64,000 nt of DNA from Minisyncoccota bacterium (GCA_025453495.1 JALOQM010000001.1:15664-79663), one strand, 5' to 3'; numbered from the stretch's first letter, positions 6,790 to 32,411 are shown. Notes: generated by a model from the sequence alone, not told the origin. Numbers and translations: made by a program.

Positions 6790-9700
6790 TTAAGTGAATA
6801 AATCGAAGTTATTTTCTGCTAACAGCATTACATTATCAATGACAGCTTTGATGTGGTCGTTGTCTATTTCAATACCTTTTTCTCCTTTAACTACATCATA
6901 AAGATAGTCATCAATACTATTTCGCATCTTACGCTTAACGTCCATGTTTTTATACCAATCAACAATAGCCTCATTCTTAATGATTGCGAAAATATCAAGA
7001 ATTATAGAAATATATAATTCTTCACTAAGCTTTAGACTCTCAAACTGAGATCGTAAGTTACGGTAAAAAATATCAGAACCTTTATTTGTCTCAATATTTT
7101 CTGGAAGACTTTCATCCTTCTTGTTCACAACATCGTCACGAATTAACTTCATTTGTTTCAATGCTTCAACATCCGCAAGTTTACCTTGTCGCATCTTTTC
7201 AAGAATTTCTGAAATCTTTTTAGAAAACTTTTCGTAAAACTCAGGGTCAGTATCAAGTTTTTCGGTGATAGTTTTTTGTGTTTGTGCGGCGATAGCCTCA
7301 GCCTTTGATTTATCAGATCCAAGATTTTCAACAGCTTCTTCAAAAAGCTTTCTATCTGTAATGTTTACTTGTTTTGTTAGTAATTCAACCCCGCGAGCAT
7401 CAACATATTTATCAAGAATGTTAATAAGTGACTGCTTGTATTCTAATAGATCGACACGGTCTGCATATTGCAAACTAGCCGCCTTACGAAGCTCAGCAAA
7501 CTTTTTCAACTCACGCTTGTATAAATCAAGGTGTTTAAATTCATGCACGAAGTCTTGCAAGACAAAACACTCACTCAAATTCTTAATAAAAGCATTGAGT
7601 GTTTTGTAGAATGTTTCTCGTTTAGGTTGATCAGCAAGAAACTGTAAGTACACCTCATCATCAGATGATCCTTTTATTTCTTTAAATAAATCATGAACCA
7701 ATGAATAGCTCTGCTCGAGTTCCTGAATCTTATCTGCCACATCGATGAGGGTACCCTTCACATCGTTCTCATCATAGTTACCGAATAGCTTCATCGCTGT
7801 CTTAATATTTTTTGCGTTCTCAGAATAGTCAACAATATACCCTGCTGTCTTCGGTTTCTCTTTTGTATTTTCATAGAGACGATTTACACGAGCAATAGCC
7901 TGGAGTAAATCATGATCATGTAAATCTTTCGCTAAGTACAAGACGGTATTTCTAGGCGCATCGAATCCCGTGAGCAACTTACTCACAACAATAATAATTT
8001 CAACTCCGTCATCGTTATACTTAAAACTATCAACAACATCTTTCTCAAACTTCTCAACACTACTGTAATTTTTCTTTAAGTCCTCGAGATACTTAACAAC
8101 CTCTTTTTTATGTGTATCTTCTTCATCACCATCATCGTGTTCATCAGAAATCACAAGGGCTGTATTTATTTTTCCTGAAGTCTCAAATGCTCTTTGAAAC
8201 AAAACAGCTGAAAACTTTGACGGAGCAACGATTTGCGCTTTCAATCCAGTTCCCTGAAAATTTTCAATGAAATGTTTTTCAATATCAATAGCTATTTCTG
8301 AAATTCGATTTGGGTTATTCTGTATAATCTTTGTTCCAGCGTGCTTTTGTAGTTCCTTCTTTTGTTTATCATTAAGCCCCTCTACGATTCTTTCCATGCG
8401 TCTGTCTACCTGTTCCTGATTTTGAACAAGTTCTACATATCTTCCCTCGTAAATTAATGGGAGGATAACCTTGTCAGCCAAAGCATCATCGATAGTGTAT
8501 CTATCAATTTCCCCTCCAAATTTATTCCAACTTTTATCATTCTTTAAAAGAGGAGTTCCTGTAAATCCAATATAGCAAGCATTCGGTATAACACGGTTCA
8601 TCTCAAGATTAGCTATTCCATACTGCGTTCTGTGGGCTTCATCAATTAAAACAAAAATATTTTTATCTTTGTCTATAACAGAACCTTTTTTCCCGGCAGT
8701 TTGAAATTTTTGGACCAAAGTAGTAATAACTGCGAGTTCCTTATTCTGGATAAGATCAAGTAGATGTTCGCCACTTGTAGCCTGAACAACGTCTTTCTTA
8801 AGGTTACAGTTCTTGAACGTATCCTTGATTTGTTTATCGAGATCTCGACGATCGGTGACAATAATCACTCGAGGGTTGAGAATATGAGGGTCTTCAATAA
8901 GAGCCTTCACAAACATCACCATAGTGAGCGATTTACCAGATCCTTGTGTGTGCCATACGAGTCCACCTTTTCGGCGAGTGATGCCTTGCTCAGTAGTTTC
9001 TTCTTCCTCTATACGCTTGAGCATCTTGTGAATAGCAAAATATTGCTGATAGCGTGAGAGCTTCTTTACTCCTGCATCGAAAAGAATGTAATTCTTGGTG
9101 AGGTCAAGTAACCGCTTTGGTTCAAATAAAGAAAATATACCTCGATCTTGCTCAGTAGGTAATCTGTCTGTTCTTTGCTTATGTCCCTCGGTGTAGCCGT
9201 TGAGATCTTCGAGAATCTGCTTGTATACATCGGCATCAATAGGCTTCTGTATTAGCTTGCCAATCTGTGTATTGAGGTCTTCTTCTTTTGCACCTTTTTC
9301 TTTCCAAACAGCATAGAACTTGTTAGGTGTGCCTGTTGTTCCGTATTGCAAATCTTTTCCATTGGTACCAACGAGAAGCTGGGTATAGGTATAGAGCTTT
9401 GGACAATACTCAGGACCTTGGTTTCGGTTCATCTGGTTGATGGCCTCTTTCACATCAACACCAGACTTTTTGTTCTCAATCACTGCAAAAGGAATGCCGT
9501 TCACAAAACACACAATATCAGGACGGATATTCTGTTTACCACTCGCTACAAATTCAGCAGATACATGGAATGCATTATTCTGTGTGTTCTCGAAGTCAAT
9601 AAACTTGAAGTTCTTTGATATCTTTTTGCCTCCATGGCTTACCTTTATAGTCTTGCCACCACTGGTAGGCATGATGATGTTGTAGATCTTTTGAGCGGTA

Positions 9701-9975
9701 TCAATAAGTCCTTCGTATTGGATATGCTCAAGCTCATCGATAGCGTCACGAACATCTTTTTCACTGAACTTGTAGGTAGTTCCATCAACTTCGTACCCGT
9801 TTATGTCCATGAGTTTCTCGGTAGCAATATCAGCAAGGATGAAGTTTGAAGTATCACCGGAACGCTGTCTGAGTGCTTCCTCGGCAGAAATATATGTATA
9901 GCCCATGCTCAAGAGAAGCTCTATGAATGGGAGCTGTGATTGTTTTGCTTCATCAAAATGTACTTTTTCTAACAT
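6790..9975 (-). CDS. hsdR: Type I restriction enzyme R subunit
   Basis: 1061 aa with SF2 helicase motifs (GSGKS Walker A, DEAHR box) and the type I R architecture. Confidence 0.9.
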   Translation of the reverse strand: MLEKVHFDEAKQSQLPFIELLLSMGYTYISAEEALRQRSGDTSNFILADIATEKLMDINGYEVDGTTYKFSEKDVRDAIDELEHIQYEGLIDTAQKIYNIIMPTSGGKTIKVSHGGKKISKNFKFIDFENTQNNAFHVSAEFVASGKQNIRPDIVCFVNGIPFAVIENKKSGVDVKEAINQMNRNQGPEYCPKLYTYTQLLVGTNGKDLQYGTTGTPNKFYAVWKEKGAKEEDLNTQIGKLIQKPIDADVYKQILEDLNGYTEGHKQRTDRLPTEQDRGIFSLFEPKRLLDLTKNYILFDAGVKKLSRYQQYFAIHKMLKRIEEEETTEQGITRRKGGLVWHTQGSGKSLTMVMFVKALIEDPHILNPRVIIVTDRRDLDKQIKDTFKNCNLKKDVVQATSGEHLLDLIQNKELAVITTLVQKFQTAGKKGSVIDKDKNIFVLIDEAHRTQYGIANLEMNRVIPNACYIGFTGTPLLKNDKSWNKFGGEIDRYTIDDALADKVILPLIYEGRYVELVQNQEQVDRRMERIVEGLNDKQKKELQKHAGTKIIQNNPNRISEIAIDIEKHFIENFQGTGLKAQIVAPSKFSAVLFQRAFETSGKINTALVISDEHDDGDEEDTHKKEVVKYLEDLKKNYSSVEKFEKDVVDSFKYNDDGVEIIIVVSKLLTGFDAPRNTVLYLAKDLHDHDLLQAIARVNRLYENTKEKPKTAGYIVDYSENAKNIKTAMKLFGNYDENDVKGTLIDVADKIQELEQSYSLVHDLFKEIKGSSDDEVYLQFLADQPKRETFYKTLNAFIKNLSECFVLQDFVHEFKHLDLYKRELKKFAELRKAASLQYADRVDLLEYKQSLINILDKYVDARGVELLTKQVNITDRKLFEEAVENLGSDKSKAEAIAAQTQKTITEKLDTDPEFYEKFSKKISEILEKMRQGKLADVEALKQMKLIRDDVVNKKDESLPENIETNKGSDIFYRNLRSQFESLKLSEELYISIILDIFAIIKNEAIVDWYKNMDVKRKMRNSIDDYLYDVVKGEKGIEIDNDHIKAVIDNVMLLAENNFDLFT

Positions 9976-9979
9976 ATAG

Positions 9980-10825
9980 TTATTTTAATTTCTTCTTACT
10001 TTTTTGCGCCGGCAGATAGTTCTCACCAGTGACGACCTTTCTCCCTGTTTTTTCTTCGAGTGCAAGTCTGGCATCTTTTGCAATCTTGCCACCTTTTTGC
10101 GCAGGAATTTTATTTTCTTCCAATCCTTTCGCTTCGGTATTCTCTGCAATCTGTCGTGTTGAAAGCTCCGCAAGTGCGGTAAAGATGAGCTCAGCCTCAG
10201 ACATATGATCACGAACATTTGCGGTCTTCCCCAAGCCTTTCAATTTTTTATGATCTTGCACACCAAGCCCACTCCACTCTTGGTGAATGATATTCGTCAG
10301 AATCGCATACTCCTTACCCTCTTCTACACCCGCAGATTTCCAATAGTCGGTGAGCTTGTTGCGTGTCTCTTGCCCCATCATGCGCTGCTGTATCCACTTG
10401 TCGCTTCGGCCATGCTTTTTCCAATACTCGCGCGAACGGTTGAGTGCTATCTCTGGGTTTACCATTTCGTCGATTCTCTCCTGTCCGACCTTTGCAAGCC
10501 ACTGCTTGAAAGGCTCGGCCTTAGGTGAAGAAATGGATTGGATAATACGGAACATACCTTGCAAATTGGACATATTTTCTACACGCTTCTTACCATCACG
10601 AGCAACTACGTCAAGGGGGGTACAAATTGTACCCCAGTTGACAGAAAGCTCAGGATCACGTGTACGCATCTTTTTGATATATTGTTTTACATCTTTCGAC
10701 TCAGAAAGCACCCGTACGACATCAGAAACAGCAAAATACCATTGCTCGTCATGCCACACGCGACGCACCTCTGTTGCCTCAAATATTGCGGGTACTATAT
10801 TTTTTTGTATTTGTGGTTTTTTCAT
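9980..10825 (-). CDS. Bro-N domain protein, DNA-damage-inducible protein D (DinD)-like
   Basis: N-terminal Bro-N-like block (TEVRRVWHDEQWYFAVSDVVRVL). The C-terminal HKKLKGLGKTANVRDHMSEAELIFTALAELST pattern resembles DinD. Confidence 0.55.
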   Translation of the reverse strand: MKKPQIQKNIVPAIFEATEVRRVWHDEQWYFAVSDVVRVLSESKDVKQYIKKMRTRDPELSVNWGTICTPLDVVARDGKKRVENMSNLQGMFRIIQSISSPKAEPFKQWLAKVGQERIDEMVNPEIALNRSREYWKKHGRSDKWIQQRMMGQETRNKLTDYWKSAGVEEGKEYAILTNIIHQEWSGLGVQDHKKLKGLGKTANVRDHMSEAELIFTALAELSTRQIAENTEAKGLEENKIPAQKGGKIAKDARLALEEKTGRKVVTGENYLPAQKSKKKLK

Positions 10826-10829
10826 ATAT

Positions 10830-11114
10830 TTATTTGATTGGCATTGCTGATAATGTTTCTCGCCCAGCTAAATAAGATTTGAGCCTATTTTTTATAAACA
10901 TCTTTCCGTGGTATGTTTTTAAATACTTCTCTCGATGAATTGCGTCATTTTCATCAAGACACGCTTCATAATATACAAGCTCGAGTGGTCTTCGTGGTGC
11001 GGTAGATTCCACTTTGCCTTTTTGGTGTTGCTCAAATCTTAATTTTAAATTTTTACTATAACCAGTATAAAATTTGTTGTCTTTTTTTGATTGTAATAAG
11101 TAAGTGTAGTACAT
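10830..11114 (-). CDS. GIY-YIG nuclease superfamily protein (UPF0213/YhbQ-like)
   Basis: MYYTYLLQSKKDNKFYTGYSKNLKLRFEQH is a classic GIY-YIG core; 94 aa. Confidence 0.7.
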   Translation of the reverse strand: MYYTYLLQSKKDNKFYTGYSKNLKLRFEQHQKGKVESTAPRRPLELVYYEACLDENDAIHREKYLKTYHGKMFIKNRLKSYLAGRETLSAMPIK

Positions 11115-11125
11115 AAAATTTAAAA

Positions 11126-12358
11126 TTATTTAGCGGGGTCTGGTGTACGAATTGTGCCAGTGATCAAATTATTGAGGAGATACTTCTTTTGATCCTTAAT
11201 GATTTGAAGTTTCTTCTCAAGTTCTTGGATTTCATCTTCGGCAGTATTGAGTATCTTTGCGATTGCTTCTTGTTCTTTTATATCTTTAGGTAGATATATT
11301 TTGCATTCACCAATATCTCCCAGATTAATCTTTATAGGGAAAGCAACGTGTAGTGTTTTGGCTCTCAGCTCATTTTGAAAATCCTTAGTTGTAAGAAAAA
11401 AAGATAACGCTTTTGAATCAAAGGACCTATTAACTTTAAGAAGCGCTAATGTGACGTAGAAAGATGCTTTAACATCCCAATCTATATACTTGATGGCACC
11501 AATACTTCCAATTCGCGTCATCAAAATATCACCTCTTTCTATTCGAACTTTCTTTATCTCAGATTCATAAACTTTCTCTGAAATATACTTTGTATTTTTA
11601 AAGTCATTAGAAGTTACATGTTCGACACTATAGAATGGAATCCCGTGCTCGACATATGTAGGAGTCTGGTGAGTGCCATCGTATATTTTACAAACGTCTT
11701 TTAATAAAAGCGTCTGCCATTTATCTCCAAATCCAGACAAGCGTTTTTTGCCAGAAAGTAAATTTTGTTTTAAGGCTAATCTTATATTTTTCTTGATCTG
11801 AATTTTCTTTGAAAGTTTTTCAATTGATTTATCCCAAGTTTCAAGAACTGAAACGATGCGATTTTGTTCTGGGAGAGGAGGAAGTTTTATTTTTATAGAT
11901 TTAAGAATTTGCAAATTCAAACCACCACGACCACCGTCACCGGCAGAGATAGATCTTAATTCTTGATATCGTCTTTCTAAATCTGACCTTAAAAAACTAT
12001 AGCTAATATCTTTCTTTGGTATAAAAAAAGCTATGGACTGATTTGTAGTAAGTGAAATTTTATTTACAGCAACCTTTCCTCTTGTAGAACCCTGACCAGC
12101 TAAAGCAATCAAAACACTGTTTGCTGGCACTATTTTCGCTGATGAATTTTTAAAACCTTCATCAGTTATAAAATTTTCTGTTTGATAAATATTTTTCTTA
12201 TTGATTTCGGCTGAATTAGCCCATGGAATATTTCCACCTTCCCAGTATTCCAAAACATCTGTCGAAGGTGTACCTCCAGCAGAAATATCACAAACAACAC
12301 CAATCTTTACTTGCTGCCATTCTGGATGAATATTTTTTTGTTGTTGATTAGTTTTCAT
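11126..12358 (-). CDS. hsdS: Type I restriction-modification specificity subunit (two target-recognition domains)
   Basis: 410 aa with two TRD-like halves and conserved LPPLPEQ-type spacer and C-terminal repeats. Confidence 0.85.
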   Translation of the reverse strand: MKTNQQQKNIHPEWQQVKIGVVCDISAGGTPSTDVLEYWEGGNIPWANSAEINKKNIYQTENFITDEGFKNSSAKIVPANSVLIALAGQGSTRGKVAVNKISLTTNQSIAFFIPKKDISYSFLRSDLERRYQELRSISAGDGGRGGLNLQILKSIKIKLPPLPEQNRIVSVLETWDKSIEKLSKKIQIKKNIRLALKQNLLSGKKRLSGFGDKWQTLLLKDVCKIYDGTHQTPTYVEHGIPFYSVEHVTSNDFKNTKYISEKVYESEIKKVRIERGDILMTRIGSIGAIKYIDWDVKASFYVTLALLKVNRSFDSKALSFFLTTKDFQNELRAKTLHVAFPIKINLGDIGECKIYLPKDIKEQEAIAKILNTAEDEIQELEKKLQIIKDQKKYLLNNLITGTIRTPDPAK

Positions 12359-12415
12359 AATTTCACTGGTTTAATTGAGATATCTATAATTTAGATATCT
12401 CTTACTGCCCTCAAA

Positions 12416-12640
12416 TTATTCTTTACTCTCGTATCCTTTTTTACAATTCAGCATAATGTAAGAATTTAATCCTTGGCCAGCTTTGGCAAGTCTTTTCATT
12501 TCATTTACGTGAATTTCACCCGCACTTTGATTGGTGTATTTATAGATACTAGAGTCTTTAAATTGAACTCGTATAAAATCTACACCAATTTCAAAACCTT
12601 TTACATTAGAATCTCCCCCTAAATTTGCGTATGTTTCCAT
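12416..12640 (-). CDS. KTSC-domain small protein
   Basis: FIRVQFKDSSIYKYTNQSAGEIHVNEMKRLAKAGQGLNSYIMLN fits the KTSC pattern (Y.Y...Y..L..A.S.G.YFN). Confidence 0.45.
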   Translation of the reverse strand: METYANLGGDSNVKGFEIGVDFIRVQFKDSSIYKYTNQSAGEIHVNEMKRLAKAGQGLNSYIMLNCKKGYESKE

Positions 12641-12699
12641 ATGTCATATTTGGCTAACTAATAATTAGTTTAACGACATTTCGGTCATTATAATGAATA

Positions 12700-13950
12700 T
12701 TATTCTTCTGAAGCTCGTTTAAATTTTTCTTGCATAGTCGGATTTCCTTTTGTTAATTTTTTAATAGTTAAATCATCAGCTTTATTATTTGCCAAACGAA
12801 GATTATTTTCCGAAGCCAAAAGATTGTCTTTAATCTTTTGAAGATGATCAATTGATTTATCAATCTCTTCTACAGCTGCTTTGAATTTTTGACTTGCTAA
12901 ATTGTAATTACGAGCAAATCCTTCCTTAAAAGCATTGAGGTTTTCTTCAAAGTGAGTAATATCTACATTTTGACTTTTCACAACAGCGAGTTCTGCCTTA
13001 TATTGCATCGAATTTAAAGCAGCATTTCGCAAAAGTGTGATAATTGGAATAAAGAATTGAGGTCGAACTACGTACATTTTAGGGTAACGATGGAATACAT
13101 CAACAATTCCAGTGTTATATAGCTCATTATCACTTTCAAGCAACGAAACTAGAACTGCGTATTCACACTTCTTTTCATTTCTATCCTTATCTAGTTCTTT
13201 CAAAAAGTCTTCATTCTTTTTCTTTGTAGCGGTAGTATCCGATTCATTTTTCATTTCAAACATTATTGAAATAATTTCATTACCTGCCTCATCATATTCT
13301 CGGTAAATATAGTCTCCTTTACTTCCAGTGGCTGAGTCATTATCTTTTTCAAAAGTAGCATTCTTAAAACCTGTTGCACGGAGTTTATTAAACTCAATTT
13401 CACAATGTTGTTCAAGAGTTTCGCCAAGCATTTTTGTTGAGAGCTTTACCTTCATGTCTTTGTAGCGCTCAATAATTTCATCTTTAGCTTTAAGCTCTGC
13501 CTCAAATTTACTATTTAAAGATAGTTCGATTTGTTGCTTTTCAGCATCCTTCATCTTTATCTCAGAAGCAAGATGGTCACGCTCTTTTTCAATTTTTGTC
13601 ACAGCCTCAGTGATTGCAAGTTTTTTTTCAGTTTCTGTCGATGAAAGCTTCGCTCGCAGTTCTGTTATTTCAAGTTCACTTTGAGACTTAGATAGATTTA
13701 CTTCACGCTCCTTTTCAGCCTTAAGTCTTGCGATTTCTAAATCTTTTTGAGCAAGGTCGTCTTTAATTTTATTTTTTACTTGCTCTTCAGCCAACTTTAC
13801 GGCACTCTCTTTTTCAGCCTTCAAAAGACTTTCTCTTTTGAGAAGCTCTTCTTCAAATTGGTGATCTCGTACTTGTTTAAGAATATCAGCATAACCTGCT
13901 TCATCAATTTTAAATGCTTTTTTACAATGTGGGCAAATTATTTCATTCAT
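12700..13950 (-). CDS. DUF2130-family protein (zinc ribbon, coiled coil, C-terminal domain)
   Basis: The N-terminus [28 protein letters not shown] is the hallmark start of DUF2130, followed by a long coiled coil. This family recurs inside type I R-M operons. Confidence 0.65.
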
Positions 13951-13957
13951 ACGTTTA

Positions 13958-15469
13958 TTATTTAATCCCTAATTCTTTTAAATATCCAACCATTTGTTTT
14001 TCAAGCTTCGCAAGCTCAGGCTCAAGAGCTTCAAGTTCTTTGAGGTTTGCTTTTATGTCCACAGGAGCTTCTTCCTCAAACGTATCGACGTATCGAGTGA
14101 TGTTGAGGTTAAAATCATTTTCCTCAATTTCCTTAAGAGAAACCTTGCGGGCAAATTTCTCTACATCCTTATGTTTCTTGTAGGTAGAGTAAATCTTCTC
14201 GATGTTCTCATCGGTAAGAATGTTCTGAGCTTTATTTGGTTTATATTCCTTTGAAGCCTCGATAAAGAAAACATCTTTTTTAGATTCGTTCTCTCCGCCT
14301 TTCTCACGTGATCGGTCAATAATAAGGATGGCTACAGGAATTCCCGTTGTCTGGAACAATCCCGCAGGTAGTCCGATAACTGCATCTATAAGATTTTCCT
14401 TGAGGAGCTGTTCGCGAATCTTTCCTTCAGCTCCACCACGGAAGAGAACGCCGTGTGGCACTACGACTGCCATATGGCCAGTCTTCGCCTTGAGTGTCTC
14501 AACCATGTGCGTGATAAAGGCAAAATCACCTTTATCCTTTGGTGGAACACCACGCCAGAATCGCTTGTATTTGTCGGCTTCTGCGTGCTCGGCACCCCAT
14601 TTTTTAAGAGAAAACGGAGGGTTTGCCACGATCGTGTCAAACTTCATCAAATGGTCGTTCTCTACAAGGAGAGGATTGTTCAATGTGTCACCCCATTCAA
14701 GTCGGGCTGAATCCTTTCCGTGGAGGAACATGTTCATGCGAGCGAGCTGATAGGTTGATCCTGTTGATTCCTGACCATAGAGTGCGTAGTTTTTTGAACC
14801 TTGTTTCTCAACTTCTTCACCTGCAAGGAGGAGGAGGCCACCTGAACCCATACAAGGATCACAAATACGTGCCCCTGCTTGTGGCTCTGCGAGCTTTGCA
14901 ACGAGCTGGGCAACGTTTCTCACAGTGAAAAATTCGCCCGCTTTCTTGCCCGCGTCGGCACCAAAGCGTTCGATCATATACATATATGAGTTACCGATGA
15001 TGTCGTCCTTCACGTCGCCGAGGTCAATCTGAGCAAAGTCCTGCACGAGATGGCGGAGCATCTTGTTTCGTTCAGCGAGCTTGCCGAGTGTTGATTCTGA
15101 GTTGAAGTCTACAGAAAATACTCCATCGAGTTTCTCTTTGTTTGTGTCTTCGATTCGATGAAGTGCTTTGTTGATTTCTTCACCAAGATTATCTTGCTCG
15201 ATTACCGAATAGATATAATCGAATGAAGACTTTGGGGGAAGATAGAAGCGATCGAGCTTCATTTTTTCTTCGATACGCTTTGTGTCGCTACCAAAACGCT
15301 CTTTGTATTCAGCATACTTCTTCTTTGAGAGGTCAGAGAGGTATTTAAAGAAAAGCATTGCAAGAACGTAGTCTTTGTAGATACCTGCATCTACCTGAGT
15401 ACGAGAAGAATCCGCTGCGTCCCAGAGGATTTTGTTTAGGTCTTCTTGTGTATATTTTTGAGTATTCAT
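13958..15469 (-). CDS. hsdM: Type I restriction-modification N6-adenine DNA methyltransferase subunit
   Basis: HsdM N-terminal domain plus the catalytic [11 protein letters not shown] (NPPF) motif and an AdoMet-binding region. Confidence 0.9.
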
Positions 15470-15470
15470 A

Positions 15471-16082
15471 TTAGTTATTAATTAGGTTAGTAAACGATGC
15501 GTTGATAATGTTTTTTTGTAATTCTTGTTTTCTCTTTAGTATCCGTTCTTGGTCTGTTATGTTTTCGTGGAGTGCGATGATGGATTTTTGAATATGTATC
15601 GGGGGTATGGGGATTTTAAAATCAATCAAATTTTTTACTAAAATACTTTGTATATAGGACCCGCCCGTAACTATTTGAAGTAATTCTTTTTGCCCGATTT
15701 CTGAGTTGAGGTATAGCGATACATATTTAGGGAGGACTGTGACATCTTGAATTCGTATTACATGAACCGAAGATGATGGCATCACCTTTGATTCATCAGA
15801 TACAAAAACTGCGGATCGAAATGAGCCTGGCCCTGACCCTCTAGAGACAAGCAAAATGTCATTATGTTGTAGGAAGTAGGGGTTTCTCAAAGATTTATCT
15901 GTAATTGTTGTAAAACCAGTTATATATTGAATATCTTGGTTTGTTTGTACATTTTTAGCTTGAAGCACAAAAATATCCCCATTTGGGTCATTTTCTATAG
16001 ACCCACGGAATGTGTACCCTGAAACAATGTCTGCTAATTGGCTCAATTTCTTGTGCATGTAAAAAGCATACTGCATTTTCAA
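15471..16082 (-). CDS. Half-size HsdS-like specificity protein (single TRD plus conserved C-terminal repeat)
   Basis: 203 aa. It ends with IPIPPIHIQKSIIALHENITDQERIL, typical of the S-subunit conserved region, and abuts hsdM. Confidence 0.65.
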   Translation of the reverse strand: MKMQYAFYMHKKLSQLADIVSGYTFRGSIENDPNGDIFVLQAKNVQTNQDIQYITGFTTITDKSLRNPYFLQHNDILLVSRGSGPGSFRSAVFVSDESKVMPSSSVHVIRIQDVTVLPKYVSLYLNSEIGQKELLQIVTGGSYIQSILVKNLIDFKIPIPPIHIQKSIIALHENITDQERILKRKQELQKNIINASFTNLINN

Positions 16083-16146: not shown

Positions 16147-17502
16147 TTGGAGGGGTTGCGTCATCAATGTAGTTGTATGAAAACAACAGCACCAATTGGC
16201 TACGAAATGACACAAGCAGCCCAAGCACCAATAAAAGTGAGGTATTGCCTCTATGCCCGTAAATCAACGGAATCTGAGGAAAGACAGGTTCTTTCAATAG
16301 ATTCGCAGATTAAGGAAATGTTACAGCTCGCCGAGAGAGAAAACTTGGAGATTGTAACAATGAAGCGAGAAAGCCATTCAGCAAAAGAAACTGGACAACG
16401 ACCAGTCTTTAACGAGATTATTGAGGAGATACGGCAAAAGAAGTACAACGGCATACTGACATGGGCACCTGACCGTATTAGTAGAAATGCCGGAGACTTG
16501 GGAAAGATAGTAGATCTGATGGATGCAGGATTGTTACAAGAAATACGTATATATGGTCAAAAATTTTCAAACAATCCAAACGAAAAATTCTTGCTAATGA
16601 TTCTTGGATCGCAAGCGAAATTAGAGAATGACAATAGAGGTGTGAATGTAAAACGAGGATTGCGTACGAGAGTTGAAATGGGTCTCTGGCCTGGGGTAGC
16701 ACCACTTGGATACTTAAATCAAAAACATATGGATAAAAAGTGTCAGGTAATAGTCGATCCACAACGTGCTCCTGTCATCAAAAAGATATTTGAAAAAGTA
16801 GTATACGAACACTATTCAGGAAGAAAGTTATATAACTGGTTACGACACGAACTGAATTTCTATACTCGTGGCAACAAACCTCTGACCTTAAGCGGAATAT
16901 ACCGAATACTTGAAAATCAGTTCTATCATGGAGTGTTTGAGCATCCGAGAGGAAGCGGTAACTGGTATCAAGGAAAACATGAGCCACTCATCACACAGGA
17001 ACTATTTGAAAAAGCTCAAGCACAACTAAAGCGAGATAATATACAACGAGAGAATAAAGAATTCGCATTCACGAAACTATTCACCTGCGGATACTGTGGT
17101 AGTGGAATATCAGCAGAGGAAAAATGGAAACAACTCAAAGATGGTACGCATGCGAAATACATCTACTACTTCTGCTCAAGAGCGAGAGATAGAAACTGCA
17201 AGAATATGTACATACGAGAGGAAGATTTAATACTTGAGCTATTGAAGATCCTCGACAAAGTAAACATCAATGAACTAGGTATGCGAAAGAAACTAGAAGA
17301 TGAGATCGCAAGGTTCAATATCTTCCAAAGATCAGTGCTTGGAGCAACAGACAAGATTAAAAACAACAAAGATACTGAAATACGAAACTTCGCTAAGTAT
17401 ATTTTGAAAGAAGGAGCAGTTGGAGAGAAACGAGAGCTGCTAGCCAACCTAAGATCGAGAATAATATACAAAGACAAACAACTTATACTGATTGCTGAAT
17501 AA
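16147..17502 (+). CDS. Large serine recombinase (resolvase catalytic domain, recombinase domain, zinc ribbon)
   Basis: YARKSTESEERQVLSIDSQ catalytic block, a recombinase domain and a CGYCGS zinc ribbon. The likely true start is an internal Met at 16177 or 16207. Divergent from the R-M operon. Confidence 0.85.
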   Translation: MEGLRHQCSCMKTTAPIGYEMTQAAQAPIKVRYCLYARKSTESEERQVLSIDSQIKEMLQLAERENLEIVTMKRESHSAKETGQRPVFNEIIEEIRQKKYNGILTWAPDRISRNAGDLGKIVDLMDAGLLQEIRIYGQKFSNNPNEKFLLMILGSQAKLENDNRGVNVKRGLRTRVEMGLWPGVAPLGYLNQKHMDKKCQVIVDPQRAPVIKKIFEKVVYEHYSGRKLYNWLRHELNFYTRGNKPLTLSGIYRILENQFYHGVFEHPRGSGNWYQGKHEPLITQELFEKAQAQLKRDNIQRENKEFAFTKLFTCGYCGSGISAEEKWKQLKDGTHAKYIYYFCSRARDRNCKNMYIREEDLILELLKILDKVNINELGMRKKLEDEIARFNIFQRSVLGATDKIKNNKDTEIRNFAKYILKEGAVGEKRELLANLRSRIIYKDKQLILIAE

Positions 17503-20516: not shown

Positions 20517-20837
20517 CTACAAGAGTGCCTCGATAGTATCGCAATCGGATATTTTTAGAAATTGCTGCTGTATTGCGATTTTAATACAAACGATACATTC
20601 AAGCGTAGATGCTTTAGTACGATTCGCATACAGCGCAAAGTGCTTCTTGGATGACTGAGCACTGCCTTCGGCAATGTTGAGAACGATAGACGTACTTGCT
20701 CGCTTCAGTTGGTCAGTTAAAGCGAAGAGTTCCGTTTTGGGAAAACTTTGCGTCAGTCGATACACTTCGCCAACAATTTGCATGCCGATCTTCCAAACAG
20801 CAAGATCTTCAAAACGATAATTCTTGAAGCTTTTCAT
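20517..20837 (-). CDS. Four-helix-bundle protein (23S rRNA intervening-sequence protein family)
   Basis: DLAVWK...LTDQLKRASTSIVLNIAEG matches the S23-ribosomal/IVS-protein family signature. Confidence 0.7.
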   Translation of the reverse strand: MKSFKNYRFEDLAVWKIGMQIVGEVYRLTQSFPKTELFALTDQLKRASTSIVLNIAEGSAQSSKKHFALYANRTKASTLECIVCIKIAIQQQFLKISDCDTIEALL

Positions 20838-27781: not shown

Positions 27782-27890
27782 TTCTGGCGACTACCTACTT
27801 TCCCCACAAGGAGTATCATCGGCTCTAGAGGTCTTAACTTCTCTGTTCGGAATGTAAAAAGGTGTTGCCCCTCCGACTAATCACCAGAAC
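27782..27890 (-). rRNA. rrf: 5S ribosomal RNA
   Basis: Reverse complement aligns base-for-base with the bacterial 5S consensus (TTCTGGCGACTACC...TCACCAGAA). Confidence 0.85.
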
Positions 27891-28478
27891 AAAATATTCA
27901 ATGGCTAAAGAAAAAACGTACTGCTTCACAACAGTACGCTCGAATATTTGATAAACATTTTCTACAGGGTGAATTTTAATCACAATTTTATTATATTTCG
28001 CTGCATAAGCAGTGAAAATCAAGAAGTCATTGACCTGTTTTGAGAGTTTCCTCTCTATTCCAAGCTTGCTTCTTGTTCGATAAAATCTTTCAATGCTTTT
28101 TGTTATCACTCACATGCCCGTAACAGCAATGGCTATTACGATAGCACGTGGTAAGCACATCCCTTTTCAGAAATTTCTTTCTAAATTGGTCTCTAGTAGT
28201 TAGTTCATCTTATATCTAAGCACATTATTTCAAGTAATTATTGTATTGTCAAGTGGTGATTTCCAAATTTCCTAATAGGAATCGGATAATTAGTACTTCT
28301 CGGCTCCACACATTACTGCGTTTCCACCTAAAGCCTATCAACGTAATCATCTCTTACGATCCTCAAACGATTCCTAATCTTGAAGCTGGCTTCCTTCTTA
28401 GATGCTTTCAGAAGTTATCCATTCCGAACATAGCTACCGGACAGTGCCGTTGGCACGACAGCCCGCACACCAGAGGTT

Positions 28479-28510
<32 letters not shown>

Positions 28511-28562
28511 CCCTTCTCAAGAATCAACGCCTGCAGTAGATAGGAGACCAACCTGTCTCACG

Positions 28563-29094
28563 CATCTATGTTTTACATCCATCATCCTGCGTTACGGGAT
28601 AACAGATCCTTCATTACTGAAGGGATCGGACTGTAACTTATTCATTGATTCACGAATTATGATTTATGATTCAAGAACGCACACATTCAGTCTCTACGGG
28701 TACTATTCGTACTGGAAAGTGGAGTCAATAAGTTTTCACTAATTGACTCACAGTGGACTTTGCATGAAGCCAGTTTAAGATTCATAACAATCCAAGCCTG
28801 GTCACCCAAGCGTATCTGGCACTGCCATTGGTGGTATATTAAACCCCGACAGTATTGATTCCACTTTCCAATACAAATAATTTCCCTCGGTATTGTCCTC
28901 TGATTACTCAGTTCGGATTTTACCGATATACGTGTACTTCACATCACATATCACTATATGATGCCGCCGTGCGTGCGCATACCGCGCACCATGGTCTTAA
29001 TCTCAGATTAAAACATCCTGAAAAAGAATTTCTTCCCTTCAGGTTCCTCAACGGGTTCAAACTGTTAAACCCACAAGGTCATTCTTATGACCTT
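28563..29094 (-). mobile_element. Putative ORF-less group I self-splicing intron inside the 23S rRNA gene
   Basis: About 532 nt interrupt the universally contiguous 23S sequence GGGTT(C)AAACCGT | CGTGAGACAG (E. coli ~2590s; the I-CreI-type homing site). The insertion ends in G before exon 2, the upstream exon ends in T, and no ORF of 60 aa or more lies on the rRNA strand. Confidence 0.55.
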
Positions 29095-29410
29095 AACGGT
29101 TTGAACCCAGCTCGCGTAACTTTTTAATTGGCGAACAGCCAAACCCTTGGCACCTTCTCCAGCGCCAGGATAAGTTGAGCCGACATCGAGGTGCCGAACT
29201 CCGCCGTCGATATGAACTCTTAGGCGGAACTAGCCTGTTATCCCTAGAGTAGCTTCTATCCCTTAATCTTCGGCCGCGTCTAAAGCGGACCATCGGTTCA
29301 CTTGGTTCTGCTTTCGCACCTGCTTGGCATGTACGCCTCACAGTCAAGCCAGCTTGTGCCCATACACTATCGGCACGGTTTCCATTCGCGCCTAGCTGAC
29401 CTTAATAAAG

Positions 29411-29451
<41 letters not shown>

Positions 29452-29742
29452 ACCCACCAGATACTGTCCCTTTGCGTTTTTGCCGCAAGGGTTAGAACAT
29501 GCCACGAGAAAGAATGGTATTTCACTGACGACTCCATATCAACCAAGATCGATACTTCAAAGTCTCCCATCTATGCTACGCAGTCACGCAACATGCTCAA
29601 TATCAAGCTATAGTAAAGCTTCTAGGGTCTTTTCGTCTAACTGCAGGTAATCGGCATCTTCACCGATATTGTATTTTCACCGAGCAAGTCCCCGAGACAG
29701 TTGTCCAGTCATTACGCCATTCGTGCGCGTCAGAACTTACCT

Positions 29743-29793
<51 letters not shown>

Positions 29794-30499
29794 CAGGGCT
29801 TATATCAGTCAGCTTGAGATAATCTCACCGCCGATATTTGACCTTCTGGCATTGGTCAGGCGTCACCCCCTATACATCCTCTTGCGAGTTCGCAGGGAGC
29901 TGTGTTTTTGATAAACAGTTGCCAGACATACTTTCGCTGCGCCCCATGAAATTAATCATGGGGAAGCCTTATTCCGAAGTTACGGCTGCTTTTTTGCCGA
30001 GTTCCTTGGGGACCTCTCACTCGTTCGCCTTGGTCTACTCGACCTGACTACCTGTGTCGGTTTACGGTACGGTTCCTGCGACGTTATACTTAGAGAATTT
30101 TCTCGGAAGCGTGCTTTGTGAAATCTATCCCGGCGAACCGGAACATTTCCGCTGTGTTTGGAGACTGCTATCTAAAGCAGATGCAGGGATTTTCCTCCGC
30201 ATCGGTCCTCACACCACGAACCCAAATCCAATAATGGGCTCCACATACAACCCTTCGTCCTCCCATCGTACGTCGCAGAAGTCACGGAATATTAACCGTG
30301 TGTCCATCGCGTGCGGCTTTCGCCATCCGCTTAGGCCCGACTAACCCTTGGCTGATTGACATTACCAAGGAAACCTTAGTCTTTCGGCGTGCGGGGATTT
30401 CACCCGCATTGCGGTTACTTGTGCCAACATTCTTACTTCCACACGCTCCAGATTGGCTCACGCCTTGTCCTTCACAGCAGAGTGGAATACTCTCCTACC

Positions 30500-30758
30500 G
30501 CTTGCAAACTTCACAGAGGAAGTGAGCGACGTACGAATGTCGCTCACATTTTTTTCTAAATACACACCGTTGGTACGATGCGTAGAACCAATTTGGCACT
30601 CTCACGTTAAACGTGAATCAGAAAAATTCGTGGGGAGAGCCGGATTCGAACCGGCACGGACGTTAGTCCATCAGATTGAAGTCTGACGAGTCTGCCAATT
30701 CCTCCATCCCCCTCAAGAATAAAATAAAAAGAACAATTCCTCTGTGAAGTTTGCAAGC
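30500..30758 (-). repeat. 23S rRNA intervening-sequence (IVS)-like insertion with a perfect 22-bp inverted-repeat stem and 215-nt loop
   Basis: gcttgcaaacttcacagaggaa (30500-30521) is the exact reverse complement of ttcctctgtgaagtttgcaagc (30737-30758). The loop contains extra hairpins and a tRNA-like T-arm (GCCGG-TTCGAAT-CCGGC). The site matches the helix-45 region where IVSs occur in other bacteria. Confidence 0.6.
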
Positions 30759-30834
30759 CCTCAAATTCGGTACTACGCTTAGCCCCGATTATTTTCGGCG
30801 CAGAGATTCTCGATGAGTGAGCTGTTACGCTTTC

Positions 30835-30866
<32 letters not shown>

Positions 30867-31539
30867 TCATTGTTTAAGAACCTCTACATCCTTGTTTTGC
30901 ACTCAGCGTAGATTTAGGGACCTTATTTAGAGATCTGGGCTGTTTCCCTTTTGACTGATGGAGCTTCGCCCCCATAGTCTAACTGCTACGTTGTAACTCT
31001 TGGTATTCGGAGTTTGATAGGTGTCGCGAGATTGCTCCCTGTCGAAACCTTCCAGTGCTCTACCCCCAAGAGGATCACGTAACGCTAGCCCTAAAGCTAT
31101 TTCGGAGAGAACCAGCTATTACCAGGTTCGATTAGCTTTTCACTCCATACCACAGGTCATCCGAAGACGTTGTACGATCTACCGGTTCGGGCCTCCCCCC
31201 GACCTTCGTCGGGGTTCACCCTGCCCATGGCAAGCTCACCTGGCTTCGGGTCTTATGTGTGCTACCAATTACGCGCTATTAACACTTGGTTTCCCTGGGA
31301 CTCCCCCCGCCTCACTTTTCGAAGTCTCTTGTCTTTCGTTTTACAACAAACATGAGACCTCACATTTTTGATGCTCCTTGTATTTCAAGGAGTTTCAAAA
31401 AGTGGGGCGGGGTTAGCCGAGCAACACACATAAACTCGTTGGCTCATTCTTCAATAGGCACGCCGTGACGGTAGCAAGCTACCGCTCCGACTCCTTGTAA
31501 GCATACAGTTTCAGGTCTATTTCACCGCCCTTATCGGGC

Positions 31540-31581
<42 letters not shown>

Positions 31582-32282
31582 TTTAAGAGTATTTAGCCTT
31601 GCCGGTTAGTGCCGGCAGATTCCTCCAAGCTATTCGTGTCTTGAAGTACTCAAGAACAGTGACAAAGAAGATATGTTATTTTCGTCTACAGGGCCATCAC
31701 CTTCTGCGGCGTTGCTTTCCAGCAACTTCAACTAACAACATATTTTTTGACTTCTCTAGTAAACTACATCACTGCCTTACAACCCCGACATCCGAAGACA
31801 TCGGTTTGGGCTGTTTCCTTTTCGCTCGCCGCTACTTAGGAAATGTCGATCTTACGATCATTGTTTTCTGTTCCTCCTGGTACTGAGATGTTTCACTTCC
31901 CAGGGTGCGCTCCCGCGTGCGTTCGCACGAAGGCTCTCGAGGGTTGCTCGAGAAGGTTTCCCCATTCGGACATCTTCGGGTCAAAGGTTGCTAGGCACCT
32001 CACCGAAGCTTATCGCAGCCACGCCACGTCCTTCATCGCCTCTTAAAGCCAAGGCATCCACCGTATGCTCTTAATTTCCTATTAGGAAATTTAAAAATCA
32101 CACTTGCACTCCGACACAAGGTCGGAGTTTGTTTTCTTCACGATGCGACCGCTCGCCCCATGAAGAAAACGACTTGCTATACAATTCTTACCTACCTGTC
32201 TCAACACGGCTCAAAGACCCAGAAAGTCTGGTGTGTTGGACAGAATGCAATTATCAATCAGCTGTCTTCCGGTCAATTGTCT

Positions 32283-32312
32283 GAACTAAAAAACCGCCTG
32301 GCGGCGGCAAGC
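32283..32312 (-). terminator. Terminator-like hairpin plus U-run in the 23S leader (possible attenuator)
   Basis: Minus-strand GCCGCC-gcca-GGCGGT followed by TTTTTT, ~200 nt upstream of the 23S 5' end. Confidence 0.25.
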
Positions 32313-32383
32313 AAAAACGAGCGAACGTTTATTACTTGCGCCGTAGTTGTCTGTTAGTTGTTTTCATATTTACAATGTCCCCA

Positions 32384-32411
32384 AGTATATAGAAATAAAA
32401 AAAGAAGTCAA
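32384..32411 (-). promoter_or_regulatory. Candidate sigma70-like promoter for the 23S-5S operon
   Basis: Minus-strand TTGACT, 16-nt spacer, TATACT, ~300 nt upstream of the 23S 5' end. Confidence 0.2.

What the first reader, a model, noticed from the sequence alone, without database searches (positions are those of the whole stretch)
30500..30758. 23S rRNA intervening sequence with perfect 22-bp stem and a tRNA-like module in its loop
A 22/22-bp perfect inverted repeat (30500-30521 vs 30737-30758) extends the helix-45-like region into a long stem enclosing 215 nt absent from canonical 23S. The loop contains a near-perfect tRNA T-arm (GCCGG-TTCGAAT-CCGGC), a hairpin with a CUUCAA(U) loop, a 9-bp hairpin (gtgagcgac...gtcgctcac) and a further 5-bp hairpin. 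Classical IVSs are excised by RNase III and sometimes encode the four-helix-bundle IVS protein. This one instead carries a structured tRNA-like RNA, possibly a tRNA-derived mobile RNA or an RNase P/Z processing signal; I have not seen this arrangement described.
Basis: seen in the sequence. Interest (0 to 1): 0.7.

Follow-up and report, generated by a model that had tools for sequence, protein, structure and literature searches.

The report
tRNA-derived module inside 23S rRNA spacer
The large ribosomal RNA gene of this ultra-small (CPR/Patescibacteria) bacterium is interrupted in helix 45 by a spacer with a conserved 21-22 bp stem, a boxA-like motif and a crippled tRNA-Leu-like fold. At least 15 other CPR genomes carry tRNA genes or tRNA relics at the same spot, an arrangement I could not find described.

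Summary
A 22-bp perfect inverted repeat (30500-30521 / 30737-30758) extends helix 45 of a 3814-nt 23S rRNA gene on the minus strand and encloses 215 nt. These include a tRNA-like element (30631-30713) that scores 40.8 bits on Rfam tRNA, above the 29-bit threshold. It has a class II, tRNA-Leu-type scaffold with three defects: a 6-nt anticodon loop, an A1·C72 mismatch, and ACGA where ACCA is expected. It is therefore not a decoder.

A scan of GTDB genomes found 16 CPR loci with the same design: a constant 21-bp stem, a GTTCTTT motif one base from E. coli rrn boxA, one to three tRNAs, a hairpin, then the returning strand. In 15 alignable sequences the stem is 100% paired, with compensatory changes in 15 of 21 pairs. 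About half of the nested tRNAs are crippled in the anticodon region. Others (Gly+Trp; Thr+Gln+Asn) look fully functional and have encoded CCA.

My best reading is an ITS-like spacer inside the 23S gene. It is excised by RNase III at the stem and by RNase P/Z at the tRNA(-like) module, leaving a two-piece 23S. Processing is inferred, not shown. The CPR rRNA-insertion papers I could read do not mention nested tRNAs. I rate it a new variant of a known kind.

The parts
28271..32084 (-). 23S rRNA gene, 3814 nt against a 2925-position model, which hosts the insertion
   Evidence: Rfam LSU_rRNA_bacteria at 2372.9 bits, model positions 1-2925. A 5S rRNA gene lies at 27782-27888 (-). No 16S rRNA gene is in the window.
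30737..30758 (-). 5' strand of the extended helix 45 stem. The first 8 nt (30758-30751, GCUUGCAA) are native H45 and the rest is the extension.
   Evidence: Inverted repeat, Rfam alignment, and covariation in alignment A1: 21 pairs, 100% paired, 15 pairs with double changes.
30728..30734 (-). GUUCUUU motif, a boxA-like candidate NusB/NusE site, three nt after the stem
   Evidence: The exact motif lies 0-9 nt after the stem in 13 of 17 loci. E. coli rrnH has GCTCTTT only at its leader and spacer boxA positions.
30631..30713 (-). tRNA-like element on a class II tRNA-Leu-type scaffold. Acceptor 30713-30707 / 30638-30632, D arm 30704-30688, anticodon arm 30686-30671 with the 6-nt loop CUUCAA, variable arm 30669-30658, T arm 30655-30639, A73 at 30631, followed by CGA rather than CCA.
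   Evidence: Rfam tRNA 40.8 bits, E = 2.9e-7. ARAGORN tRNA-???. Coordinates. D-arm match to a genuine tRNA-Leu from L028.
30602..30616 (-). Small 5-bp hairpin (UCACG-UUUAA-CGUGA) 3' of the tRNA-like element
   Evidence: Sequence, fold, coordinates.
30570..30591 (-). Second small hairpin (UUGGU...ACCAA) in the 3' part of the spacer
   Evidence: Fold, coordinates.
30522..30547 (-). 9-bp hairpin directly abutting the 3' strand of the long stem. A hairpin at this position is conserved in the related loci.
   Evidence: Inverted repeat I4. The equivalent hairpin appears in the 14 other loci whose 3' side could be delimited.
30500..30521 (-). 3' strand of the extended helix 45 stem

Best explanation
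This is the CPR (Patescibacteria) version of a helix-45 intervening sequence, and it is built like a small internal transcribed spacer placed inside the 23S rRNA gene. The order in rRNA sense is: a 21-22 bp processing stem that continues native H45; a boxA-like GUUCUUU motif; a tRNA module; small hairpins; a hairpin that stacks on the stem; and the returning strand. In this organism the tRNA module is a degenerate tRNA-Leu-derived fold. It keeps the acceptor/T-arm stack, the D/T-loop elbow nucleotides and the variable arm. It has lost decoding features: the anticodon loop has 6 nt, pair 1-72 is A·C, and the 3' end reads ACGA instead of ACCA. The proposed mechanism is as follows. The spacer is transcribed within the 23S precursor. 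RNase III, which is retained in CPR, cuts the long stem, and/or RNase P and RNase Z or exonucleases cut at the 5' and 3' sides of the tRNA(-like) fold. Exonucleases then trim back to the stem and the abutting hairpin. The mature 23S consists of two pieces held together by the H45 helix. In relatives whose nested tRNAs are intact, the same processing releases functional tRNAs. The motif after the stem may reload the NusB/NusE antitermination and chaperone complex halfway through the gene. What is shown: the anatomy, the position, the tRNA homology, the defects, stem covariation, motif conservation and recurrence in CPR. What is inferred: every cleavage step, fragmentation of the mature 23S, and Nus factor binding.
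For: The tRNA fold is statistically supported. It has a Leu-type scaffold: a 3-bp D stem with G13/A22, and the stretch UGGAGGAAUUGGCAGAC matches 15 of 17 positions of a genuine tRNA-Leu(CAG) from L028. Its 4-bp variable arm has the same layout. The three defects are visible.

Recurrence rests on a scan of one genome per GTDB species for the 23S 5' flank of H45 followed 98-128 nt later by a T-loop. It returned 21 loci. In 16 of them, all CPR or CPR-like MAGs, E. coli 23S aligns to the locus; in 14 it aligns on both sides of the tRNA(s). Rfam confirms tRNA hits of 46.7-65.6 bits, plus one weaker second element of 34.5 bits in L006, nested inside LSU hits in 9 loci.

The stem is 21 bp in all 15 alignable sequences. 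All 315 cells are paired, 15 of 21 pairs show changes on both sides, and 0 of 500 shuffles reach the observed value. GTTCTTT is conserved in 13 of 17 loci within an otherwise variable spacer. It differs by one base from E. coli boxA, which occurs only at the rrnH leader and spacer positions. A hairpin abuts the 3' strand in every locus where that side could be delimited.

Roughly half of the 21 nested tRNA(-like)s have abnormal anticodon loops or an anticodon that does not fit the body, while their acceptor, D and T arms remain intact. This argues for selection on shape rather than on decoding. L018 (Gly-UCC + Trp-CCA) and L019 (Thr-UGU + Gln-CUG + Asn-GUU) carry canonical tRNAs with encoded CCA. 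Those must be cut out to function. CPR genomes retain rnc, rnj and pnp (PMC12641178). The window organism is CPR: a flanking protein is 100% identical to a 'Candidatus Pacebacteria' MAG protein, and its 23S is 81-83% identical to Saccharibacteria loci.
Against: There are no RNA data, so excision, cleavage sites and fragmentation are all inferred. No close relative of this organism with an assembled H45 could be obtained: the contigs stop before it. Conservation of this particular Leu-like element is therefore untested. L006 carries a second, clearly decaying tRNA relic (34.5 bits), which shows that nested tRNAs can simply rot. The A1·C72 mismatch, a G at position -1 and the missing CCA are suboptimal for bacterial RNase P. 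The cloverleaf is 2.8 kcal/mol above the computed minimum-energy structure. The boxA assignment rests on a 7-nt motif. The CPR 23S leaders show a somewhat different element, a hairpin followed by GGTTTTT(C)TTT. The window contains no gene for RNase III, RNase P, RNase Z or NusB that I could point to.
Confidence: 0.55

Rival explanations
1. The tRNA-like element is a neutral relic. A tRNA-Leu gene once sat in the spacer, has been inactivated, and is now decaying. Excision of the IVS depends only on RNase III acting on the stem, as in classical enterobacterial, Coxiella or Leptospira IVSs.
For: The element has three inactivating defects. L006 has a second, more decayed tRNA relic beside a better one. 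tRNA identity differs from lineage to lineage, which indicates turnover. The 21-bp covarying stem alone would be a sufficient RNase III substrate. RNase III is retained in CPR.
Against: All 23 stem pairs other than 1-72 are intact, as are the elbow nucleotides (U8, A14, G18G19, U54U55C56, A58). Across loci the damage concentrates in the anticodon region and spares the acceptor, T and D arms. Every one of the 16 related loci keeps at least one recognisable tRNA fold, although the search pattern required a T-loop, so this last point is biased.
Confidence: 0.25
2. The insert is not removed. It stays in the mature ribosome as a surface expansion segment of helix 45, with the tRNA-like fold acting as a structural or binding module.
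For: H45 lies on the solvent side and tolerates insertions (general knowledge). The distal 12 bp of the stem are unusually conserved in sequence, which could reflect a protein or RNA contact.
Against: Relatives carry canonical tRNAs with encoded CCA at the same place (L018, L019), and these would be useless if never released. Classical H45 IVSs are excised (PMC4990558 and PMC11270868, as cited).
Confidence: 0.08
3. It is a working tRNA, such as an unusual tRNA-Leu, a suppressor or a frameshifting tRNA, expressed from within the rRNA operon.
For: The Rfam score is above threshold. The scaffold is Leu-type with A73, and LeuRS does not read the anticodon (textbook knowledge). Nested functional-looking tRNAs exist in relatives.
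Against: The anticodon loop has 6 nt, so there is no triplet in a normal context. Pair 1-72 is A·C. The sequence reads CGA where the relatives encode CCA.
Confidence: 0.04
4. It is an assembly chimera or a tRNA-derived mobile element (SINE/MITE-like) that landed in the rRNA gene.
For: The source is a metagenome contig. The perfect 22-bp inverted repeat superficially resembles terminal inverted repeats.
Against: The same architecture occurs in 16 independent assemblies from different studies. The 'inverted repeat' is the native H45 helix plus an extension that covaries among lineages. The element is single-copy in the 64-kb window and has no match in phage or viral collections.
Confidence: 0.02

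Closest known systems
Helix-45 intervening sequences (IVS) of bacterial 23S rRNA (Salmonella, Yersinia, Campylobacter, Leptospira, Coxiella)
   Same: The insertion point is the same, the loop of H45. The native loop is replaced by a long complementary stem. The expected outcome, RNase III excision without religation and a fragmented 23S, is also the same (PMC4990558, PMC2801512, PMC11270868).
   Different: Classical IVSs are sporadic. They are either simple stem-loops or carry an S23p/IVP ORF. This one carries a tRNA-derived fold and a boxA-like motif and has no ORF. Its scaffold is conserved across CPR classes with a constant 21-bp stem.
16S-23S internal transcribed spacer of bacterial rrn operons (processing stems + boxA + tRNA genes)
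   Same: It has the same parts list: an RNase III-type stem, a GYUCUUU boxA-type motif and co-transcribed tRNAs released by RNase P and 3' processing (E. coli rrnH; PMC8632103).
   Different: The spacer is located inside the 23S gene rather than between genes. The order is stem-boxA-tRNA, whereas E. coli has tRNA-boxA-stem. In this window the tRNA is non-decoding.
tRNA punctuation and 't-elements' of mitochondria, including the discontinuous LSU rRNA of Tetrahymena mitochondria whose parts are separated by a tRNA-Leu gene (recalled from memory: Heinonen et al. 1987)
   Same: tRNA or tRNA-like folds mark the boundaries of other RNAs and are cut by RNase P and RNase Z. Plant mitochondrial t-elements are non-decoding tRNA-like processing signals (PMC1920247 and PMC3790967, listed).
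   Different: Those systems are organellar. Here it would be a free-living or episymbiotic bacterial lineage, with the tRNA enclosed by an rRNA helix. Cleavage has not been demonstrated.
CPR rRNA 'insertion sequences' catalogued by Tsurumaki et al. 2024 (PMC11270868)
   Same: That paper reports many short, non-intron, ORF-less insertions at sites in CPR 23S genes that match the known RNase III IVS sites. It notes that 64 of 66 Saccharibacteria insertions are <=250 bp. These probably include this class.
   Different: The word 'tRNA' does not occur in that paper's main text. [quoted passage not shown] The nested tRNAs, the conserved stem and the boxA-like motif are not described.

Membership tests
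23S rRNA helix-45 IVS | The insertion replaces the terminal loop of helix 45 | tested here: met
   The Rfam LSU alignment places the extra sequence between model positions 1218 and 1219 inside the 8-bp H45 hairpin. Pairwise alignment with E. coli puts it after Ec1163.
23S rRNA helix-45 IVS | Flanking sequences form a long double-stranded stem suitable for RNase III | tested here: met
   A 22-bp perfect stem is present. The stem is 21 bp in 15 sequences, 100% paired, with 15 covarying pairs.
23S rRNA helix-45 IVS | Excised from the precursor without religation, giving a fragmented 23S | not testable with these tools
   No RNA data are available. RNase III is reported as retained in CPR (PMC12641178).
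tRNA (Rfam RF00005) | Cloverleaf with conserved D- and T-loop nucleotides scoring above the family threshold | tested here: met
   40.8 bits against a gathering score of 29, E = 2.9e-7. ARAGORN also calls it.
tRNA (functional decoder) | 7-nt anticodon loop with U33 and a readable triplet | tested here: not met
   The loop is the 6-nt CUUCAA. ARAGORN reports a 2-nt 'anticodon', and the Rfam alignment shows a deletion in the loop.
tRNA (functional decoder) | Paired 1-72 (for an elongator) and a 3' CCA, either encoded as in relatives or added | tested here: not met
   Pair 1-72 is A1·C72. The 3' sequence is A73-CGA, whereas most nested tRNAs of relatives encode CCA. Post-transcriptional CCA addition is not testable here.
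tRNA-Leu (class II) | Long variable arm, 3-bp D stem with G13·A22, the GGAAUUGG-AGAC D loop, and A73 | tested here: met
   Structure. The D-arm stretch matches the tRNA-Leu(CAG) of L028 at 15 of 17 positions. A pattern built on that D loop retrieved tRNA-Leu genes. Whole-sequence identity does not discriminate Leu from Ser.
rrn boxA (NusB/NusE antitermination site) | Single-stranded GYUCUUU(A) core in an rRNA leader or spacer, conserved among relatives | tested here: inconclusive
   GUUCUUU lies 3 nt after the stem and is exact in 13 of 17 loci. E. coli boxA is GCUCUUU at the leader and spacer only. However, the motif is only 7 nt, and the CPR 23S leaders show a different U-rich element. Nus binding is not testable.
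t-element / tRNA punctuation | Non-decoding tRNA-like fold positioned at the boundary of another mature RNA | tested here: inconclusive
   The non-decoding fold is shown. That it lies at a boundary is only inferred from its position inside an IVS.
t-element / tRNA punctuation | Cleaved by RNase P and/or RNase Z | not testable with these tools
   This requires in vitro cleavage assays or RNA end mapping.
Group I intron | Match to the group I catalytic core within the H45 insert | tested here: not met
   The permissive Rfam search of 30350-30900 (E <= 10) lists no intron hit. A different insertion of this gene, at Ec2593, does give a weak hit.

The most novel reading that the evidence does not exclude
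CPR/Patescibacteria 23S rRNA genes commonly contain a true internal transcribed spacer in helix 45. It consists of a constant 21-bp processing stem, a NusB/NusE boxA and a slot for tRNA genes, so the large-subunit rRNA is made in two pieces by tRNA-punctuated processing. That would be a bacterial counterpart of mitochondrial tRNA punctuation. Where the resident tRNA has lost decoding ability, as with the Leu-like element in this window, it is retained as a bacterial 't-element' whose only job is to recruit RNase P/Z.
Probability: 0.4. Interest if true: 0.85.

Novelty: new variant of a known kind. Interest (0 to 1): 0.7.

Why it matters
If this holds, a large bacterial radiation builds its 50S subunit from a split 23S whose break point is defined by tRNA genes or tRNA relics. 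Three consequences follow. First, rRNA maturation would be linked to the tRNA-processing enzymes in organisms that have lost about half of the usual ribosome-biogenesis factors, which offers a concrete, testable processing pathway. Second, it would explain the many 'short, unclassified' 23S insertions reported for CPR, especially Saccharibacteria. Third, genome annotation would need to change: tRNAs nested in rRNA genes are likely to be masked or dismissed, which could make tRNA sets look incomplete, and 23S lengths and models are mis-estimated. The site would also give a natural series running from functional tRNA to non-decoding tRNA-like processing signal, useful for studying how t-elements arise.

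Tried and rejected
- **Close relatives by synteny.** I tried to obtain close relatives of this organism in order to test conservation and covariation of the Leu-like element. Homologues of the flanking genes were found at 60-80% identity. All their contigs stop before helix 45 (L025-L027; L030-L033).
- **Metagenome scan.** A pattern specific for a Leu-type D loop downstream of the 23S flank returned only two chance hits at ordinary tRNA-Leu(CAG) genes with no 23S.
- **Independent assembly.** Look-ups of exact proteins intended to find an independent assembly of the same 23S failed.
- **Chance hits in the genome scan.** Five of the 21 genome-scan hits (L012, L014, L015, L017, L021) are non-CPR and have no 23S, so I discarded them as chance matches next to ordinary tRNAs.
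- **Viral and phage collections.** Neither gave a match.
- **Failed Rfam calls.** Two multi-locus Rfam calls failed internally, so L004, L018, L020, L022, L023 and L024 rest on ARAGORN and BLAST only.
- **Selenocysteine tRNA.** I considered this because of the UCA in the loop and the 6-bp stem. I rejected it because the loop has 6 nt and the D arm and variable arm are Leu-type.
- **Internal promoter.** I considered reading TTGAGG...TATATT in the stem and motif region as a promoter. I rejected it because the -35-like part is removed by compensatory changes in this window.
- **Literature.** Searches for nested tRNAs in 23S, for boxA in IVSs and for the Gram-positive boxA string found nothing usable. 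The Gram-positive boxA consensus TGTTCTTTGAAAA is therefore from memory only.

Full report
**1. What is in the window**

Rfam finds a complete bacterial large-subunit rRNA at 28271-32084 on the minus strand, followed by a 5S rRNA at 27782-27888. No 16S rRNA gene is in the 64 kb. The 23S gene is 3814 nt long against a 2925-position model, so it carries about 890 nt of extra sequence. Alignment to E. coli rrlH and the Rfam alignments locate the extra pieces:

| Insertion | Position in E. coli 23S | Window coordinates |
|---|---|---|
| ~51 nt | after Ec274 | 31752-31802 |
| 99 nt | after Ec611 | 31312-31410 |
| ~240 nt | helix 45, after Ec1163 | the finding |
| 534-537 nt | between Ec2593 and Ec2594 | ~28563-29095 |

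**2. Check of the observation**

The inverted repeat is real. The arms are 30500-30524 and 30734-30758 (25 nt, 96% complementary), and the first 22 bp are perfect. The Rfam LSU alignment puts the extra sequence exactly in the loop of the 8-bp helix 45, between model positions 1218 and 1219. The first 8 bp of the repeat are therefore native H45 and the rest is an extension.

Inside the insert, Rfam's tRNA model matches 30631-30713 on the rRNA strand at 40.8 bits (gathering score 29, E = 2.9e-7). ARAGORN reports a tRNA with a 2-nt 'anticodon'. The 9-bp hairpin (30522-30547) and the 5-bp hairpin (30602-30616) are also present. The insert as a whole folds with z = -9.4 relative to shuffles. No ORF of note lies in it.

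**3. Anatomy of the tRNA-like element**

- The acceptor stem is AGGGGGA/UCUCCCC, with an A1·C72 mismatch and a G5·U68 wobble.
- U8 is present.
- The D stem has 3 bp with G13/A22, and the D loop is AAUUGGCAG.
- The anticodon stem has 5 bp (6 bp with an added G·U) and closes a 6-nt loop, CUUCAA.
- The variable arm is GGAC-UAAC-GUCC.
- The T arm is GCCGG-UUCGAAU-CCGGC.
- The discriminator is A73, followed by CGA.

The D-arm stretch UGGAGGAAUUGGCAGAC matches the genuine tRNA-Leu(CAG) in L028 at 15 of 17 positions. The variable-arm layout is the same as well. A pattern built on that D loop retrieved tRNA-Leu genes. I conclude that this is a tRNA-Leu-type class II scaffold.

Three features make it unfit for decoding: the 6-nt loop, the 1-72 mismatch, and CGA where CCA would be (one substitution away). 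The other 23 base pairs and the elbow nucleotides are intact. For the isolated sequence the cloverleaf (-30.9 kcal/mol) is 2.8 kcal/mol above a rod-like minimum-energy structure. That is a caveat but is common for unmodified tRNA sequences.

**4. Who the organism is**

The window is part of JGI metagenome contig Ga0392395_0000052, 211 kb. A flanking protein is 100% identical to a protein of a 'Candidatus Pacebacteria' MAG, and its other homologues are named Patescibacteria, Paceibacterota or Nomurabacteria. The 23S is 81-83% identical to Saccharibacteria loci and about 72% identical to E. coli. The organism is therefore a member of the CPR/Patescibacteria.

**5. Relatives**

I scanned one genome per GTDB species for the conserved 23S flank 5' of H45 (CGGGGCT-N9-10-ACCGAA), followed 98-128 nt later by a T-loop (GGTTCRAWTCC). 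The scan gave 21 loci. Five are non-CPR with no 23S and are chance hits beside ordinary tRNAs.

In the other 16, all CPR or CPR-like MAGs, E. coli 23S aligns to the locus. In 14 of them it aligns on both sides of the tRNA(s); L018 and L024 are short contig-end loci covered on the 5' side only. Rfam reports tRNA hits of 46.7-65.6 bits, plus a weaker second element of 34.5 bits in L006, nested inside LSU hits in L005, L006, L007, L008, L010, L011, L013, L016 and L019. ARAGORN names many anticodons.

All of these loci share one architecture. In rRNA sense the order is:

1. A 21-bp stem, consisting of native H45 plus a 13-bp extension (typically ...CUUCAUUGAGGA / UCCUCAAUGAAG...).
2. The motif GTTCTTT, 0-9 nt later.
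3. A short A/U-rich spacer.
4. One to three tRNAs, usually with encoded CCA.
5. Variable sequence.
6. A hairpin directly abutting the 3' strand.
7. The 3' strand of the stem.

**6. The stem**

I built a composite alignment of 15 sequences (A1). The 21 pairs are paired in all 315 cells. Fifteen pairs show changes on both sides, and 0 of 500 shuffles reach the observed covariation. Sliding the partner strand destroys pairing, leaving 30-46% of cells paired. The window's own CACAGAGGA/UCCUCUGUG differs from the common CAUUGAGGA/UCCUCAAUG by compensatory changes. The constant length of about two helical turns fits an RNase III substrate. CPR genomes are reported to retain rnc, rnj and pnp (PMC12641178).

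**7. The motif**

GTTCTTT is exact in 13 of 17 loci, inside a spacer that otherwise varies in length and sequence. In the whole window the heptamer is not enriched (19 matches against 18 expected), so its significance lies in its positional conservation.

In E. coli rrnH, GCTCTTT occurs exactly twice in 2.4 kb: in the 16S leader and in the 16S-23S spacer after the tRNAs. Those are the known boxA positions (PMC8632103). The CPR motif differs from it by one base. L005 and L010 read GTTCTTTGA, which resembles the Gram-positive boxA as I remember it.

The leaders of CPR 23S genes show a related but different element: a hairpin followed by GGTTTTT(C)TTT. A similar hairpin followed by TTTTTTCTTTAGC lies in the window's 23S-5S spacer. 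I therefore treat the boxA assignment as plausible, not established.

**8. State of the nested tRNAs**

*Fully canonical, with encoded CCA.*
- L018: Gly-UCC and Trp-CCA.
- L019: Thr-UGU and Gln-CUG with encoded CCA, followed by a canonical Asn-GUU without an encoded CCA.

*Abnormal anticodon region.*
- 6-nt loops: the window element and L008#1.
- 8-nt loops: L010, L022, L023.
- No U33: L004, L009.
- C37: L006.
- A34 anticodons: L011, L020.
- A hairpin in place of the loop: L013.

*Anticodon does not fit the body.*
- Class I bodies with Ser anticodons: L008#2, L016.
- A class I 'Tyr': L005.
- An 'Ala' without G3·U70: L007.

*Decaying relic.* L006 also has a second, decaying relic at 34.5 bits.

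The acceptor, D and T arms are nearly always intact. The tRNAs lying outside the 23S in the same loci and in the window are all normal. This pattern suggests that what is kept is the tRNA shape, which is the part recognised by RNase P, RNase Z and the CCA-adding enzyme. The relic in L006 shows that neutral decay also happens.

**9. Mechanism**

*Shown:* the position, the fold, the defects, stem covariation, motif conservation and recurrence in CPR.

*Inferred:* the spacer is transcribed within the 23S precursor. RNase III cuts the stem and/or RNase P and RNase Z (or exonucleases) cut at the tRNA(-like) ends. Trimming stops at the stem and the abutting hairpin. The mature 23S is in two pieces. 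In relatives with intact tRNAs the same steps deliver functional tRNAs, which is hard to reconcile with the insert remaining in the ribosome. The window's element lacks an encoded CCA, so it would be an RNase Z-type substrate. Its A1·C72 mismatch and G at -1 are suboptimal for RNase P.

I put 0.55 on this overall reading. I give 0.25 to the alternative that the element is a neutral relic and RNase III does all the work. The remainder is spread over a retained expansion segment, a working tRNA, and an artefact or mobile element. The last is disfavoured by the single copy in the window and the absence of phage or viral matches.

**10. Comparison with what is known**

The insertion site and the stem are those of classical H45 IVSs (PMC4990558, PMC2801512). 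The parts list is that of a 16S-23S spacer. The logic is that of mitochondrial tRNA punctuation and plant t-elements (PMC3790967, PMC1920247).

The systematic study of CPR rRNA insertions (PMC11270868) reports many short, non-intron, ORF-less insertions at IVS sites, and notes that 64 of 66 Saccharibacteria insertions are <=250 bp. It never mentions tRNA in its main text. Neither do the paper on Patescibacteria tRNA introns or the ribosome-biogenesis survey. Targeted phrase searches returned nothing. I cannot exclude a description in literature outside the searchable library.

**11. Limits**

- No RNA data are available.
- No close relative with an assembled H45 could be obtained.
- The genome scan required a T-loop at a fixed distance. 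It therefore cannot say how many CPR 23S genes lack a tRNA in H45, and it biases the set towards recognisable tRNAs.
- Two Rfam calls failed.

Noticed in passing
window ~28563-29095 (-): There is a 534-537-nt insertion in the 23S exactly between E. coli positions 2593 and 2594 (loop of H93), a group I intron site listed for CPR 23S genes in PMC11270868 and, from memory, the I-CreI site. It gives a weak Rfam Intron_gpI hit at 28607-28967 (23.3 bits, below the gathering score of 50; E = 0.0022). It is probably an ORF-less group I intron. L006 has a 532-nt insertion at the same site.
   Followed up: partly
window 31312-31410 (-): A 99-nt insertion after E. coli position 611 (a domain II hairpin) folds into a long branched stem (z = -8.0). 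It may be a second IVS-like or expansion element in the same 23S. Its content was not analysed further.
   Followed up: partly
window 31752-31802 (-): There is a ~51-nt insertion after E. coli position 274 in domain I of the 23S.
   Followed up: no
window 20517-20837 (-) (= L001 14917-15237): A stand-alone gene whose product hits Pfam 23S_rRNA_IVP (PF05635) lies between the LemA and M48 peptidase genes, outside any rRNA. A relative (L026 7898-8263) has it at the same place. The 'IVS protein' family is thus encoded away from the IVS in this organism.
   Followed up: no
window 52152-52227 (+): ARAGORN calls a tRNA-Ile with anticodon TAT (UAU). To my knowledge this is uncommon in bacteria, which usually read AUA with a lysidine-modified CAU tRNA.
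   Followed up: no
window 32384-32411 (-), 28224-28252 (-), 27914-27941 (-): The 23S-5S unit is unlinked from any 16S and has its own promoter-like site (TTGACT-16-TATACT). The unusually long ~380-nt 23S-5S spacer holds a near-consensus promoter-like site (TTGACA-17-AATAAT with TG) and a hairpin followed by TTTTTTCTTTAGC.
   Followed up: no
L006, L011, L013, L016, L019 and window ~32293-32314 (-), upstream of the 23S: The leaders of CPR 23S genes share a GC hairpin (CCGC...GCGG) followed by TTTTT(C)TTT and often CAGAA. This may be the CPR boxB-boxA (nut-like) element, or a terminator-like structure.
   Followed up: partly
L018 ~83-248 and L019 ~74-342 of the extracted H45 regions (L018 171-336; L019 694-962 in locus coordinates): Some CPR genomes carry arrays of two or three apparently functional tRNAs inside helix 45 of the 23S: Gly-UCC + Trp-CCA in L018, and Thr-UGU + Gln-CUG + Asn-GUU in L019. 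All but the Asn-GUU have encoded CCA.
   Followed up: partly
L013 7170-7262: This nested tRNA-like element (Rfam 58.5 bits) has its anticodon loop replaced by an extra ~25-nt hairpin. ARAGORN misses it.
   Followed up: no
window 6790-16082 and 16147-17502: A type I restriction-modification system (HsdR, HsdM and two HsdS genes) with a BRO-N protein and DUF2130 lies next to a serine recombinase gene. This may be a mobile defence island.
   Followed up: no
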